Assembly (NCBI GenBank): GCA_043827405.1
Contig: JBDRPD010000029.1
Location: 1 to 47,777 of the forward strand
Length of the DNA: 47,777 bases
Source of the DNA: Elusimicrobiota bacterium
GTDB taxonomy: Bacteria; Elusimicrobiota; Elusimicrobia; UBA1565
Direction of reading: 5' to 3'
Below, one piece after another: positions 39,001 through 45,000 of the stretch (position 1 is its first letter; each line of letters opens with the position of its first letter). Made by a program: the position numbers.

Positions 39001-42000
39001 TCGACACGGAAAACAGCAAGGTCAGCCTGGGGATCAAGCAGCTGTCACCGCACCCCGCGGACCTTCTGCGCAAGAAGTATCCCTTCAAGAAAGTCGTCCA
39101 GGGGACCGTTTCGGATGTGCTGAAGGACGGAGTAAGGATCAAGCTGCCGAAAGGGGATACGGCGTTTTGCCCGGTTCGAGAGCTGCAGGTCGAGGGCGGG
39201 GACCCAACTCAGACGCGTCCTGAGAGAGGGGAGAATCTCCCGCCGGTTTGGCCGAAAACGGGCGATAAAGTCGGCGCCTTGGTTACGGGCATTCACAATG
39301 CGACCTTCGAGGTGTCGGTGTCGATCCGGCGCTACGAGTCCGTTCAGGACCGCAAGCGTGTCGCCCTCTACATGAAGAAGCCTCCACCTCTCACTCTGGG
39401 GCAGCTGTTTAACCGAGAAGCAGAATAGATTGAGACTCGCTTGTTCGGTCCTCAGTCTGCTGATTCTGTCGGGGGCTGGGCCCCGCGTAGTCCGCGCCCA
39501 GGACTTCGGGCATAATCCCGTCCGCGTCCGTCAGTTCGACTGGAAGGTCTCTTCGACCGAGCATTTCGATATCCACTACTACGAGGATTCCGCGCCGCTC
39601 GTCCCCTTCGCCGCCAAAATACTCGAACGCTCCTACCGGCGCATCAGTAAAGGGCTCAAGACGGAATTCACTGAACGCAAGCCGTTTTTTCTCTATGCGT
39701 GCGCGGATGATATGCAGCAGTCCAATATCGTCCAGGTGGGCGACGGAACCGGCGGCGTAACCGAGGCGTTCAAGGATCGCTTCATGGTGTTTAACGACGG
39801 CAGCCGGCAGTGGCTGGACACCGTCGCCACACACGAGCTCGCGCACGTATTCCAGTATCATGTCCTGATTTCCGGTTTCTGGCGGACGGGGCGGATACTG
39901 AAATCGATCGTCTACCCGTTGTGGATGATGGAGGGGATGGCCGAGCTGTATGCTTGGGGGCTCGATGATACCTCCGGCGAGATCATCGTGCGCGACGCCG
40001 CTACCTCCGGCGGACTGATTCCCGTTTGGAAGCTGGAGCATTTCAGCCATCTCAAGCCGCATCAAGTGCGTCTCGCGTATGAGTTGGGAGAGAAGATCCT
40101 GTCGTTTATTGAGACGGAGTACGGGCATGGCAAGGTCGCGCAGATGCTCAAGCTCTTTGAATCGCGTTTCGAGACGAGCAGCGTGCTGCAGGAGCTTATT
40201 GGCTTAGACACCTTCGAGTTTGAAAGACGCTGGCGCGAATATGCCGAAGAGCACTACGGACGGATCCGACGCCGGCAGCGGCTGCAGGAGCCGGACAAAT
40301 ACGGTGTGGCGCTGACGACCGCGAGCGGGGAGATCCCGGAATTTAATACTTCTCCCGTGTTTTCTCCCGACGGCCGCCATATGGCGTTTCTTTCCACGCG
40401 CGCGGGTTATCCCGCCGGAGTGTTTCTGCAGGACCTGCGCACGGGGAAGATTCGCAAGCTCGTTTCCAATCGGGTGAGCGTGGAAAATGTCCATACGGGA
40501 AATTTTACGAACCAGTCGAGGGTGCTCTCGATCTCGAAAGACGGACGTTGGCTGGCTTTCTCCGGGACCAAAAACCACCGTCCAGCGATTCAGCTCTATG
40601 ATTTGCGGCGCCATCGGCTTGAGCACATCCCCGTCAAGGATATGCAGACGGTCACGGGGACCTCGTTTTCGCCTGACGGCAGGACGATCGCGTTTACCGG
40701 GATGAAAAATGCGGTGACGGATATTTACCTTATGGACCTTGAGAGCCGGGAGATTCGGCAGCTAACGGATGACTCCCGGGACGATCAAACCCCGGATTTC
40801 TCCCCGGACGGCGAGTCGATCGTATACAGCGCGGAGCTTGAGACGCCGGGAGGGGATGTGCTGTACCAGCGCCGTCTGTACCGCATCCGTCTGGCCGACG
40901 GCAGCATCGCGCCGCTGCTGGATATCCCCGGTTCCGCGCGGGATCCCTATCATGCGGCGGACGGGCGCCGCCTGCTCTTTTCGCTCGAGCATAACGGCTT
41001 CCACGAAGTCTACGAACTGAACCTGGAAAGCCGTAAGACGTACCGGTTGACGCGGTCCGTGGGCGCGGCGTATACGCCCGCCTATTCGCCCGACGGACGG
41101 ATTGTGTTCGCGGGGTTTCGGCGCGGGAGCATCCACGTGTATCGCGGAGGACGGGAGCGATTCGAGGCTGAGTTGTGGAGCGACGATGCGCCGCAGCAGG
41201 AGGAGCGTTTCGCGCCGGTCCCGGTCTCGACGGCGGCCGTTTCCCTATCGCTCGGGCGTCCTTTTCGCGATTCTTTCTCCACGGATCTCTTTCTTCCGGC
41301 TTTCTTTTACTCTACCGAAGGGGGATTTTTCTGGGCGAGCTACTGGCAGGGTTCGGATATGCTCGGCAACCACCAGGTTTTATCGGCGCTTAGTTACGCG
41401 TCGGGCAGCGGCTACCTTGATTATCAGACGGTCTACAGCTACAACAAGTACCGGACCAAGTTCCGCGTTGGCGGCCTCGGCCGGGCGCGGCGCGACCTGT
41501 TGGACGAGCGTTCCGGACTGTCGAGCAACGAGTATGCGCATGCGGAGTTTGTGGGGGCAACGTACCCGCTTGACCGGTTTCATCGTCTGGATTTTTCAGC
41601 GACGTCCGTCAGCGACAGCCGGCTGTTTTTGGGCGTAGGCGACACTGTCCGCAATGAGGCGCGCATCGGTCAAGCATCGTTTGTGCGCGATACTGTCCGG
41701 GGGCGCTATTTGGTCGCGACTTCGGGCGATCGCTTCCGACTAAGCTATCAGGTCTCCCCCAGGCTTCTGGGCGGCAACTTTATCTATGAGACGGCGTCAG
41801 CGGAAGCGCATAAGTACGTGCCGACGGGGGGACGGAGCGCGTTGGTGCTCAGGGGACTCGGCGTCGGCAGCTGGGGACGCCGCACGCCCCGCTATGCCCT
41901 GGGCGGCATCGGAGGGGCGCGGGGTTTCGCGCGGAGCACGACCGAAAATTCGGGCTCTCATATGGCGTTGGCCACTGCCGAATGGCGCGTCCCCATCGTT

Positions 42001-45000
42001 AATCTCGATTATTACATGTGGTATATTTTCCCGGATTTTTACTTCAAAGCGCTCTCCTTGGCGCTGTTTACGGACGCCGGATATGCCTGGGACGAGCGGC
42101 CGCAAATCGGACGCATGGAGTGGGAGTATGTTCGTCACTCCTATGGGATCGGTCTTCGCATACACACCTTCATCATGCAGCTTTTCCCGTTGGTGGTGCA
42201 TTTCGACTATGCGCAAAAGACTACCGACAAGGGCCGCGTCTTTTATGTCTACTTGGGGCCGCTGTTTTGAGTAGAATCTCCGCCATGCCGCGGGATTTTG
42301 GCTACCGTAAGGGGCGCCTCTGCGTTGAAAACGTGCCGGTGGAGCGTATTGCGCGGCGTTTGGGTACTCCGGTCTATATATACTCCGCCAAAGGCATCCA
42401 GGATCGCTATCGTGAGTATAGGACAGCTTTTTCCGGCAGCAGCGCCTTGATCTGTTATGCCCTGAAGGCCAATTCCAATCTCGCCATATGCCGTCTTTTG
42501 GCAGGCGAGGGGGCGGGGGCGGATGTCGTATCCGGCGGCGAGCTGCTGCGCGGCCTGCGCGCGGGATTCCGGGCGGGAGATATCGTCTTTTCCGGCGTGG
42601 GCAAAACCATAGACGAGCTGGATCTGGCGCTGCGGCATGGAGTGCGTGCGATTAACGTGGAAAGCGCTGAGGAGTTGGAGGTATTGGCGAAGCTGGCACG
42701 CCGCCGGCGGCGGCGGGCCCCGATCGCCATTCGCATCAATCCGGACGTTGATGCCGCCACGCATGCGCATATCTCAACCGGACGGGCACGCGACAAATTC
42801 GGGGTGGGATCTGCGGCGGCGCTCGAACTGTATCGCCGCGCAGCGGCGGATAAATGGCTGGAGCCTGCAGGTATTCATTGTCATATCGGTTCGCAGATCA
42901 CCCGTCTCGGGCCGTACCGTCGCGCGCTGCGGATTATCGCGCGGCTGCTGCGGCGTCTGCAAACGGCCGGGGTGCGTCTCCGGCACATCGATATCGGCGG
43001 CGGAATGGGGATCGCTTACGGGAAGGGGGCGCCGCTGTCGCCTCGATCTCTGGCGGAGCTGGTGAATCGAGAGCTGCTGGATTTTCGCGATATGAGCTTG
43101 ATACTGGAACCGGGGCGCAGTCTTGTGGGAGAGGCGGGATTGCTGGCGACAAAGGTGCTTTACCGCAAGGCGAGGGGGCGGCGGAATTTCGTTATTGTGG
43201 ATGCCGGCATGACGGACCTCTTGCGGCCGGCACTATACGGCGCCAGGCATGAGATCGTTCCCGTCACGTTGAGTCGACGTCAACCAACAAGGGTCGACAT
43301 CGTGGGCCCAGTTTGCGAGTCCACGGATGTGTTCGCGCGGGGACGGAAGCTACCGCTGCCCGCCGCGGGCGATGTGCTGGCGGTGCTGCAGGCCGGCGCT
43401 TACGGCTTCAGCATGAGCTCGCAGTACAATTCCCGGCCCCGGGCGGCGGAAGTTCTCGTCTCCGGCTCGCGCAGCCGGATCGTGAGGCGCCGGGAGACCC
43501 CGGCGGACCTGATGCGCCATGAGCTCTGAGCGCCCGGTATCCTCCGAAGAATATACCGACACCTATTACGCAGAGGCTTGCGGCGGGGCGGAGTTTTTTG
43601 CGCTCTACGGTCCTCGCGTCCCCAAGCCGCAACTGGCATACGCGCTGAAAAGAGCCGCTATTCGGCCGGGCATGCGAGTGCTCGATATCGGGTGCGGGAG
43701 GGGGGAAGTTCTCTACCAGGCGCGCGAGGGTGGGGCGCAGGCTATCGGTACGGATTATTCGCAAGCGGCGCTGAAGCTGGCGCGGGATGTATCCTTGGCC
43801 CCCGTTTTGCGCTGTGACGCAAAAGCCCTGCCGTTTCGCGACGGGACATTCGACCGGATATTCTTCGTCGGGATCATCGACCATTTGCACGACTGGGAAC
43901 TGGAGAAAAGCTTCGCCGAGATGCGTCGCGTTATGCGCCCTGGGGGAAGTGTCCTTGTGCATACATGTACGAATAGGCATTACTACAAGACGCTGAGTTA
44001 CGGCATCAGAAGAGCGCTGGCGCGCATGGCTCGGAGGTTTGGTTTGCCGGTGCGGGAACCGTCGCGGCCCCGTTCCAGCGAGGACGAGAAGCTGCATGTC
44101 AACGAGCATGCGAAGGGCGACCTGGAACGCTTCTTCGCGCGAATCGGATGGGAGTACGACATCGTAGCGCTCCCTAACTACAAATTTCTCATCGGAAGCC
44201 TGTATGGAAGCAAGCTCCCTGATAAATTCCCCATGAAAGCGGCCCCTCGTTGGAAGAAGCTGTTGTTTATGGGAACGTTGTTTATGCCGCCGCTTGACCG
44301 CCTTCTCGCGAGAGAGTTCTTCGTCGAGGCGCGTCCCCGTAATCTTTGACAAAGAAGGGGCGCGTGTTATAACCTTCTGCCATGGGAAAGAAAAGAAAAA
44401 AGAAAAGGGACCGGGAAGCAAGAAAGCAGCAAGAGGTCGAGAAAACTCCCAATAATGACGAATCTGCCGTCGGAGATGAGAAAGAAGCGATATCCTCCGC
44501 CGGAAGGAAGACCATCGTCGGAGGGGTCGCGCTTTTGATCGCAGGCTTTATTATTTTGACCTTTACCGATCCTCAGGGCAGGAACTGGGCCTCCACTCTC
44601 TCGCCGCTGCTAATTCTGGGTGCCTACGGCGTTATCGCCTATGGTATATTCCTGCCGGGCAAAGAGCCCTCGTCGGTCCCCGACGAGAAAGAGACCAAGA
44701 AAGAAGCCCCCGAATCTTCCTAAACCGCTCTATCTCCCTCCTTCCGTCGATCAGCGCAGCGTAGAGCTTCTACGCCTATCGCGAGAGAGACCAAGAAAGA
44801 AGCCCCCGAATCTTCCTAAACCTTCCTGTATCTCTCCATTTGCCTATTCACGTAATACAGCTCTTCTATTCGCTTTTCAGCATAAGCCAGGGGACGTGAG
44901 TTCGGGCGGATGAAATTAAATGCATGGTTTTTCACTGAATGATGATTTTCCATCAGATCCGTGCCGGCCCTGGACCATGGCTTTTCGTATTACGTTTTCC

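What a model noticed while it worked through the whole genome (the two positions that open the first line are those of the whole stretch)
39430..42270. Phylum-wide Omp85 barrel without POTRA domains, fused to an HExxH protease and a TolB-like propeller
g00878 (946 aa) is an Omp85-family outer-membrane barrel whose N-terminal part is not POTRA repeats but a zinc metalloprotease domain (Peptidase_MA_2, invariant HExxH) followed by a PD40/TolB-type beta-propeller; it sits in a housekeeping operon and has close full-length relatives in hundreds of Elusimicrobiota. I read it as an outer-membrane quality-control machine that joins a BamA/TamA-type barrel to a BepA-like protease in one chain, or a new type-Vd-like autotransporter. 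Either way it would be a new architectural class of the Omp85 superfamily.
Evidence so far: pfam.tsv: Peptidase_MA_2 86-271, PD40 x5 303-571, Omp85 604-943 (E 4e-12). AF2 on 16 homologues (mean pLDDT 75.6): alpha/beta protease 39-282, all-beta propeller 300-575, low-confidence linker 586-634, all-beta barrel 624-946, no POTRA-like unit. In 16 sequences at 42-69% identity H135, E136, H139, E168 are invariant. 589 proteins at E<=1e-40, the 120 listed all 735-1008 aa, nearly every named one from Elusimicrobia/Elusimicrobiota. A canonical BamA with 5 POTRA (g01040) and a 2-POTRA Omp85 (g00848) are also present. Neighbours: cmk, acyltransferase, S1-domain protein, lysA, same strand.
(Added by a program. 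Inside this text positions count along the whole contig: contig position 1 is position 1 of the stretch shown here. "Call 12" and the like, gene names such as g00115 and contig names such as C1 are that model's own, and its searches are not shown. The text may have been shortened before it was handed on; [...] marks where a part breaks off. The agent that wrote the report below was given it as the finding of a first reader that could run no searches.)

Follow-up and report, generated by a model that had tools for sequence, protein, structure and literature searches.

The report
Protease-carrying Omp85 outer-membrane barrel
This gene encodes an outer-membrane barrel of the BamA family that carries an apparently intact zinc protease and a propeller domain instead of the usual POTRA arm; the design was catalogued in 2014, is common in many bacterial phyla, and I found no experimental study of what it does.

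Summary
The 946-aa ORF has a signal peptide, an HExxH gluzincin domain, a TolB-like propeller, a short linker and a 16-strand Omp85 barrel, with no POTRA.

The novelty claim fails. This is the 'WD40-like' Omp85 subfamily of Heinz & Lithgow 2014, whose Table S3 already lists barrel, TolB and peptidase templates for about 81 of 95 members. A listed member, Q2RZZ9, aligns over residues 12-887 (27% identity, E 1e-78).

It is neither Elusimicrobiota-specific (full-length relatives in Bacteroidota, Gemmatimonadota, Acidobacteriota, Calditrichota and more) nor phylum-wide: 84 of 301 genomes, and 0 of 88 and 0 of 89 in the two largest families. The active site resembles M9 collagenases, not BepA (M48).

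Best reading: an outer-membrane-anchored, periplasm-facing zinc endopeptidase that works in envelope quality control beside BamA and TamA (about 0.5; inferred, no activity data). Surface display is unlikely. The scan already holds 32 notes matching these terms on other DNA, and the 8 shown reach the same filing. A large unstudied family, but not a new class.

The parts
39430..42270 (+). WD40-like Omp85 gene, 946 aa (signal peptide - gluzincin peptidase - TolB-like propeller - linker - 16-strand Omp85 barrel)
39430..39498 (+). Likely Sec signal peptide, aa 1-23, ending just before the conserved mature start Q-x-F-G-x-N
   Evidence: Read from the sequence (hydrophobic stretch, then VRA|Q). pLDDT <50 for 1-24; F26/G27/N29 conserved. 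No signal-peptide predictor was run.
39499..40275 (+). Gluzincin (clan MA) zinc peptidase domain, aa 24-282
   Evidence: Pfam Peptidase_MA_2; profile A4 hits a microbial collagenase (7wss, E 1.2e-5), ColG/ColH and M1 aminopeptidases
39751..39765 (+). G108-G109-V-T-E112: double-glycine motif and edge strand as in collagenases
   Evidence: G109 273/277, E112 276/277; strand E109-112 in the model; motif described in PMC3711286
39832..39846 (+). HExxH zinc motif H135-E136-L-A-H139
39931..39945 (+). Third zinc ligand E168 (WxxEG), 29 residues after H139, with A171 and second-shell E172
   Evidence: spacing of 28-30 in collagenases
40078..40080 (+). Y217, invariant; aligns with the YRWG / YVKG tyrosine of a collagenase and an M1 aminopeptidase
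   Evidence: its role as transition-state stabiliser is recalled
40291..41154 (+). TolB-like PD40 beta-propeller, aa 288-575
   Evidence: Pfam PD40; VIA Z 27.8, rmsd 2.6, 250 aligned to 2ojh; Z 27.5, rmsd 2.3, 242 aligned to TolB 1c5k
41155..41274 (+). Variable linker, about 40 aa; too short for a POTRA domain
   Evidence: pLDDT 71 and 60 for 581-600. Measured over residues 575-611: 37 aa here, median 37 in 59 close homologues, median 90 in 98 named loci of other phyla.
41275..42267 (+). 16-stranded Omp85 barrel, aa 616-946
   Evidence: 16 strands by DSSP; VIA Z 21.7, rmsd 4.0, 296 aligned to BamA 8xnb; Z 21.5, rmsd 4.7, 277 aligned to TamA barrel 8us4
41920..41928 (+). Loop-6 R831-G-F lid-lock motif
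   Evidence: R831 270/277; motif defined in PMC11358297
42067..42081 (+). Strand-13 FxDxG motif (F880-T-D882-A-G884)
   Evidence: D882 272/277
42256..42267 (+). C-terminal G943-P-L-F; glycine at the same -4 position as in the genome's BamA (GSLF) and TamA-like protein (GEAF)
   Evidence: G 217/277, F946 240/277; the link to a lateral-gate kink is recalled
36899..39428 (+). Conserved upstream genes: cmk, acyltransferase, S1-domain (rpsA-like)
   Evidence: rpsA-like upstream in 69 of 80 and cmk in 70 of 80 Elusimicrobiota loci
42285..43529 (+). lysA, downstream; context only
   Evidence: downstream in 20 of 80 loci

Best explanation
Identity (about 0.97): a compact Elusimicrobiota member of the published 'WD40-like' Omp85 subfamily.

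Mechanism (about 0.5): an outer-membrane-anchored zinc endopeptidase that faces the periplasm.
1. Inferred: the protein crosses by Sec, and BAM inserts the barrel through its terminal Phe.
2. Inferred from Omp85 topology: the N-terminal domains precede strand 1, so they stay in the periplasm under a barrel that loop 6 closes to the outside.
3. Shown by sequence: the catalytic set is complete and under strong selection.
4. Inferred: the collagenase-type double-Gly and edge strand bind an extended, unfolded chain. The propeller takes the place of POTRA and BamB as the binding or gating surface.
5. Inferred, weakest step: the substrates are unfolded or stalled envelope proteins at the inner face of the outer membrane, trimmed or destroyed there. 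The protein is an accessory to BamA and TamA, not a replacement.
For: - All catalytic positions are kept down to about 24% identity, in 118 of 119 unselected full-length representatives. The peptidase is the best-conserved domain: mean column conservation 0.48, against 0.42 for the propeller and 0.37 for the barrel.
- Collagenase-type features match one by one.
- Lid-lock R831 and D882 are kept in 97-98% of 277 sequences.
- Periplasmic turns are better conserved than outer loops, 0.45 against 0.30. This is probably general in Omp85 proteins, so it is weak.
- pTM 0.85, and whole-chain TM 0.83-0.88 to predicted models from several other phyla, suggest one fixed arrangement of the three domains.
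- PlpD, an enzyme-fused Omp85 that has been tested, keeps its enzyme periplasmic. BepA shows that a protease under an Omp85 barrel does outer-membrane-protein quality control (abstract).
- BamA and a TamA-like/TamB-like pair coexist in the genome.
- The gene has a fixed place behind cmk-acyltransferase-rpsA, which suggests constitutive housekeeping expression.
Against: - No activity, topology or substrate data. I could not inspect model coordinates, so the position of the active site relative to the barrel is not known.
- The gene is dispensable in many lineages: 0 of 88, 0 of 89 and 5 of 27 genomes in three families. That is odd for core quality control.
- The Elusimicrobiota neighbours say nothing about envelope biogenesis.
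- The peptidase fold rests on sequence profiles only (best PDB E 1.2e-5). The domain was not matched structurally.
- Lid-lock motifs are also kept in FhaC, which does translocate (cites the FhaC lid-lock paper), so they do not exclude transport.
Confidence: 0.5

Rival explanations
1. Accessory of type IX-like secretion: it matures or clears C-terminal-domain cargo, or helps to assemble PorV- and SprA-type barrels.
For: The genome holds 12 PorV-like hits (10 over the cut-off), 17 TIGR04183 tail hits and a SprA-like 1936-aa frame below the cut-off. No C25 peptidase was found, but the control was silent. 82 of the 84 gene-positive genomes have PorV-like genes (hand count). Earlier scan notes report T9SS neighbours in other phyla (leads only).
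Against: No PorV-like neighbour in the flanks of 232 loci (80 Elusimicrobiota, 78 other phyla, 74 mostly Rhodothermales; flanks 2.5-4 kb; profile built from this genome's PorV-like genes). Family f3 has PorV-like genes in 27 of 27 genomes but this gene in 5 of 27. Outside f4 and f14, PorV-like genes are in 122 of 124 genomes, so the overlap carries little information.
Confidence: 0.15
2. Feeding device: peptides enter through the barrel, the propeller filters by size as in tricorn or S9 peptidases, and the peptidase cuts them.
For: The propeller resembles those of tricorn and S9 peptidases. The nearest catalytic relatives are nutritional collagenases. The gene is missing from the families with the smallest genomes.
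Against: The loop-6 lid-lock is conserved. No peptide-transport genes occur among the frequent Elusimicrobiota neighbours. TolB, not a peptidase, is the best structural match of the propeller.
Confidence: 0.15
3. A second, self-contained insertase: BamA barrel, BamB-like propeller and protease in one chain, folding its own set of outer-membrane proteins through a lateral gate.
For: Short strand 16 with Gly at -4, as in the genome's BamA and TamA-like proteins and unlike its three short Omp85 paralogues. Heinz & Lithgow likened the subfamily to a BamA-BamB fusion. TamB lies directly upstream in 3 of 78 loci from other phyla.
Against: No POTRA domain. BamA and TamA/TamB-like genes are present in the same genome. 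The barrel is the least conserved domain. The lateral seam was not measured.
Confidence: 0.12
4. Type Vd-like autotransporter that displays or releases the protease at the cell surface.
For: Enzyme domain N-terminal to an Omp85 barrel. A 2026 review calls type Vd translocation unresolved.
Against: PlpD's enzyme domain is periplasmic. A passenger of about 550 aa with a closed propeller would have to unfold. No conserved cleavage site in the linker, where 1 of 37 columns is conserved.
Confidence: 0.08

Closest known systems
'WD40-like' (WD40-Omp85) subfamily of the Omp85/TpsB superfamily (Heinz & Lithgow 2014, PMC4104836), e.g. Q2RZZ9 / SRU_2383 of Salinibacter ruber DSM 13855
   Same: Same three domains in the same order, no POTRA, TolB as best propeller template, and the same peptidase templates (4ar1, 4kxd). 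27% identity over residues 12-887, E 1e-78. Profile-profile probability 100 over 872 columns.
   Different: About 100 aa shorter (linker 37 against 56 in Q2RZZ9; loop 6 27 against 55). The sampled Elusimicrobiota proteins form their own clade (support 0.705) at a fixed cmk-rpsA locus. The 2014 main text never mentions the peptidase (0 hits); it is only in Table S3.
M9 bacterial collagenases (ColG, ColH, 7wss) and M1 aminopeptidases
   Same: HExxH plus Glu 28-30 residues on, double Gly and edge strand, second-shell Gln and Glu, basement Ala, distal Tyr.
   Different: Matches cover the peptidase core only. The edge-strand Glu is one residue nearer the Gly pair (GGxxE against GGxxxE). The domain is fused to a propeller and a barrel. 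M1 enzymes have a shorter His-to-Glu spacing (recalled).
BAM-BepA quality control (PMC13478230, abstract only)
   Same: A zinc protease placed under an Omp85 barrel is the working model here.
   Different: BepA is a separate M48 enzyme with a lid and a plug, working on BamA that has POTRA domains. No M48 match here.
Patatin-like Omp85 PlpD ('type Vd'; PMC11116518)
   Same: Enzyme domain fused N-terminal to an Omp85 barrel; most likely periplasmic.
   Different: PlpD has a lipase-type domain and one POTRA, is a homodimer and appears to lack a lateral gate.
'Metallo' Omp85 subfamily (Heinz & Lithgow 2014)
   Same: POTRA-less Omp85 called 'metalloprotease'; the same two hypotheses (periplasmic quality control or export) were already put for it.
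   Different: Its domain is PF00149, not HExxH, and its domain profiles list no propeller.

Membership tests
WD40-like Omp85 subfamily | C-terminal Omp85-type 16-strand barrel | tested here: met
   PF01103 over the cut-off; 16 strands; Z about 21.5 to BamA and TamA
WD40-like Omp85 subfamily | No POTRA domain | tested here: met
   No PF07244 at E<=0.05, while the genome's BamA and TamA-like proteins score 5 and 2; only about 40 aa lie between propeller and strand 1
WD40-like Omp85 subfamily | TolB-like PD40 propeller | tested here: met
   PF07676; TolB is the top hit by sequence and by fold, as in Tables S2 and S3
WD40-like Omp85 subfamily | N-terminal peptidase domain matching 4ar1 / 4kxd-type templates (Table S3) | tested here: met
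   Profile A4 hits 4kx7/4kxd (E 0.0028) and 4ar1 (E 0.012); the best hit is 7wss (E 1.2e-5)
WD40-like Omp85 subfamily | Sequence similarity across all domains to a listed member | tested here: met
   P0573 = UniRef100_Q2RZZ9, in column 'WD40-like' of Table S1; BLASTP E 1e-78 over 12-887. One of the 95 listed members was tested directly.
Omp85 superfamily barrel | Loop-6 RG(F/Y) and strand-13 FxDxG lid-lock | tested here: met
   R831, G832, F880, D882
Omp85 insertases (BamA/TamA) | POTRA arm | tested here: not met
Omp85 insertases (BamA/TamA) | Opening lateral gate between strands 1 and 16 | tested here: inconclusive
   Short strand 16 and Gly at -4; no coordinates or dynamics examined
BepA (M48) | Peptidase_M48 domain with TPR region | tested here: not met
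   No M48 or TPR family at E<=0.05 in Pfam or NCBIfam; no BepA among 47 PDB matches at E<=1
Metallo Omp85 subfamily | PF00149 domain | tested here: not met
   Absent at E<=0.05
Type Vd / patatin-like Omp85 | Patatin domain plus one POTRA | tested here: not met
Type Vd / patatin-like Omp85 | Enzyme domain exposed at the surface | not testable with these tools
   Needs a topology experiment
M9 collagenases | HExxH plus Glu 28-30 residues downstream, double Gly and edge strand | tested here: met
   Spacing 29 here; 29-30 in 206 of 277, range 24-31; definition from PMC3711286
M9 collagenases | Collagen-recruitment (PKD-like, collagen-binding) domains | tested here: not met
   None at E<=0.05; the chain is fully accounted for by peptidase, propeller and barrel
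M9 collagenases | Cleavage of triple-helical collagen | not testable with these tools
   Needs an assay

The most novel reading that the evidence does not exclude
The WD40-like Omp85 proteins are a one-chain equivalent of BAM plus BepA. The barrel captures stalled or wrongly folded outer-membrane proteins, or type IX-like cargo, at its lateral seam; the propeller holds them; and a collagenase-type active site cuts them. That would be a large, multi-phylum outer-membrane quality-control or maturation machine with a protease unrelated to BepA, for which my searches found no experiment.
Probability: 0.25. Interest if true: 0.7.

Novelty: new member of a known kind. Interest (0 to 1): 0.3.

Why it matters
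The architecture is not new, so the finding does not add a class to the Omp85 superfamily. It matters a little because the subfamily is very large (8000 of 8000 and 5156 of 8000 candidates at E<=1e-30 from two distant queries; these counts can include propeller-only matches) and was still called uncharacterised in 2024. Its defining paper hides the peptidase in a supplement. If the protease proves to be coupled to the barrel's gate, it would show how phyla outside Proteobacteria police outer-membrane assembly.

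Tried and rejected
- 'New architectural class': rejected.
- 'Phylum-wide': rejected. The tool's tally of 211 of 301 at 1e-20 is inflated by propeller-only hits (profile 367-553, frames of about 430 aa, TolB-sized). 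A peptidase-only profile gave the same 84 genomes at E<=1.7e-29. Its weaker hits in f4 lie in 500-600-aa frames; the one read (L308) has no propeller or barrel.
- Single-sequence fold of the peptidase domain failed (pLDDT 35). Fold searches with the whole model were filled by propeller and barrel matches, so the peptidase fold has no structural match here.
- phmmer of the barrel alone against PDB sequences: 0 hits.
- Linking to the 2014 list through a record titled Ignavibacterium album gave no UniProt accession; the Salinibacter route worked.
- Expression: no RNA holder listed. Three metatranscriptome contig sets left the gene uncovered. No evidence either way.
- Promoter and terminator scan: no more than chance, 2 against 3.1 and 8 against 9.4.
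- PorV adjacency was not reproduced in my loci. A TamB-like tail two genes upstream in 13 loci was not confirmed.
- A complex prediction of barrel against soluble module never ran, so docking is open.
- Literature: 9 searches listed no paper whose title or abstract start points to an experimental study of a WD40-like Omp85. Subscription papers (e.g. Doyle & Bernstein 2022, not seen), figures and bioRxiv supplements are outside what I could read and may bear on this.

Full report
1. The observation. The window holds a 946-codon ORF at 39430-42270 (+). It starts with TTG one base after the stop of an S1-domain gene and ends 14 bases before lysA. Pfam gives Peptidase_MA_2 at 86-271, PD40 repeats and Omp85 at 604-943, all over their cut-offs, and no POTRA. 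AlphaFold2 on 60 of the 120 homologues listed gave pLDDT 87.3 and pTM 0.85: a helical/mixed domain to about 282, an all-beta propeller to about 575, a soft linker, and 16 strands from 616 to 943. The propeller matches TolB (Z 27.5, rmsd 2.3, 242 aligned) and the barrel matches BamA and TamA (Z about 21.5). The genome also encodes BamA with 5 POTRA, a 2-POTRA TamA-like protein next to a TamB/YhdP-like gene, and three short Omp85 proteins.

2. It is a known subfamily. Heinz & Lithgow 2014 (PMC4104836; I read section 10, passages, Table S2, part 2 of Table S3 and rows of Table S1; figures not seen) define a POTRA-less 'WD40-like' Omp85 cluster whose propeller is most like TolB. The main text never says 'peptidase'. 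Table S3, however, has a column 'best aminopeptidase hit', filled with templates such as 4ar1, 4kxd and 1z5h for about 81 of 95 rows (my hand count; 9 'out of range', 3 truncated, 2 tricorn). A 2024 paper sums this up as 'WD40 and peptidase domains' (PMC11358297, passages). To test membership by sequence I went from a Salinibacter plasmid hit through named loci to a cluster that holds UniRef100_Q2RZZ9. Q2RZZ9 stands in the 'WD40-like' column. It aligns with the window protein over residues 12-887, across all three domains, at 27% identity and E 1e-78. The two alignments match with probability 100 over 872 columns. A peptidase-only profile recovers 4kxd and 4ar1 independently.

3. Distribution. 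The family is not confined to Elusimicrobiota. The Atlas returns whole-chain TM 0.83-0.88 to clusters led by Poribacteria, Acidobacteriota, Aminicenantota, Ignavibacteriota, Bacteroidota and Fidelibacterota. Named loci include Latescibacterota, Eisenbacteria, Gemmatimonadota, Calditrichota, Zixibacteria and KSB1. Nor is it phylum-wide. In 301 genomes of the window's phylum, 84 carry it (82 whole, 2 cut by contig ends, one of the 82 split over two contigs), in 28 of 34 families; these are hand counts, and two different profiles gave the same set. It was not found in f4 (0 of 88) or f14 (0 of 89), both mostly small genomes, and in 5 of 27 in f3. The tool gives no family names. Host-associated lineages are my guess, and some records labelled Elusimicrobiaceae do carry the gene. 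The sampled Elusimicrobiota proteins form one clade (support 0.705; 77 of 277 sequences used), with a shorter linker and loop 6 than the named loci of other phyla. In 80 loci an rpsA-like gene lies upstream in 69 and cmk in 70; lysA is downstream in 20; a TPR gene is upstream in 45. Some loci end at contig edges.

4. The active site. Among 119 full-length representatives from a search that did not select for motifs, 118 keep HExxH and WxxEG; P0257 does not and was dropped before the alignment. In the 277-sequence alignment H135, E136, H139, W165, E168, Y217, R117 and P713 are invariant. 98 of those rows were chosen by the HExxH motif, so the 118 are the fair test; they give the same result. 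The features that PMC3711286 (passages) lists for clostridial collagenases are present: Glu 28-30 after the motif (29 here), a double Gly before an edge strand ending in Glu (G108-G109...E112), second-shell Gln and Glu (Q142 178/277, E172 251/277), and the basement Ala (A171 246/277). The best PDB matches are collagenases, then M1 aminopeptidases; BepA is not among 47 matches. The enzyme looks intact and built for extended chains. 'BepA-like' is true only at the level of zinc gluzincins (recalled).

5. The barrel. The loop-6 RG(F/Y) and strand-13 FxDxG lid-lock are kept (R831 270/277, D882 272/277). Strand 16 is short, with Gly four residues from the end, as in the genome's BamA and TamA-like proteins and not in its three short Omp85 proteins. 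That is compatible with a lateral gate but does not show one.

6. How it most likely works. Shown: domain order, an intact catalytic set, barrel motifs, coexistence with BamA and TamA-like genes. Inferred: periplasmic position, from Omp85 topology and from PlpD, whose enzyme domain is periplasmic (PMC11116518, passages). Inferred, weakest: the substrates are unfolded or stalled envelope proteins, by analogy with BepA under BamA (PMC13478230, abstract and outline). I give this about 0.5. Rivals: accessory of type IX-like secretion 0.15, peptide feeding 0.15, second insertase 0.12, surface display 0.08. The secretion rival came from earlier scan notes, and I tested it. The genome does hold PorV-like genes, T9SS-type tails and a SprA-like frame, and 82 of 84 carriers have PorV-like genes. 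But no PorV-like gene lies in the flanks of 232 loci, and family f3 keeps PorV-like genes in 27 of 27 genomes while 22 lack this gene. A 2026 review calls type Vd translocation unresolved (PMC13721041, one passage). Passages of PMC13067283, PMC11014939 and PMC12611786 added nothing on this subfamily.

7. Verdict. Real, ordinary in architecture, unstudied in function as far as nine searches show (subscription papers, figures and bioRxiv supplements not seen). New member of a known kind; interest 0.3. The scan holds 32 notes with these terms, and the 8 shown file it the same way. I had reached that filing from the paper before reading them.

Noticed in passing
G000: C88, C85, C66, C1, C51, C13, C62, C17; window 22773-22985 (-): A type IX-like secretion set in this Elusimicrobiota genome: 12 PorV-like hits, 17 T9SS-type tail hits (in frames of up to 7851 aa; one in the window), 8 of 12 PorV-like genes 72-114 nt behind a tail, and a SprA-like 1936-aa frame below the cut-off. 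PorV-like genes occur in 161 of 301 genomes of the phylum. Cargo paired with its own PorV-like gene may deserve a look of its own.
   Followed up: partly
window 1-3154 (-): TamA-like Omp85 with 2 POTRA (1592-3154) directly upstream of a YhdP/DUF748-like, TamB-type gene that runs off the contig.
   Followed up: partly
L076:2846-3892 and 44 other Elusimicrobiota loci: A membrane-anchored TPR gene lies upstream of the gene in 45 of 80 loci, and a HEAT-repeat gene downstream in 26. The TPR gene has no match in G000.
   Followed up: partly
window 44382-44723 (+): Small two-helix membrane protein of no known family; homologues lie downstream of the gene in at least 24 of 80 loci.
   Followed up: partly
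L307:1975-5103 (-), L310:1792-5520 (-), L306:3654-6593 (+): Second or divergent copies: G272 and G285 carry longer paralogues (frames of 1043 and 1243 aa) besides the rpsA-type gene, and G062 has only a divergent 980-aa form.
   Followed up: partly
L107:3926-5839 (Salinibacter ruber plasmid pSR116): A copy that stops after the propeller (637 aa, no barrel), while its close relatives are 1050-1100 aa; probably a truncated gene.
   Followed up: partly
L308:2149-3831 (-), L309:70-1650 (+): Barrel-less relatives of the peptidase domain: one behind a long low-complexity N-terminus (a G070 gene; similar weak hits in 66 of 88 f4 genomes), one flanked by TPR-like repeats.
   Followed up: partly
L124, L128, L129; L131, L140, L143, L145: In other phyla the gene follows tamB directly (3 loci) or precedes mlaE/mlaF (4 Calditrichota loci).
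   Followed up: partly
window 38133-39428 (+): The rpsA-like gene has 4 S1 stretches and scores below every NCBIfam S1 cut-off; a short form of S1.
   Followed up: no
L141: The record is titled Ignavibacterium album, but the nearest named homologues of its protein are labelled Bacteroidota or Ignavibacteriales and none I. album; the title may be loose.
   Followed up: no
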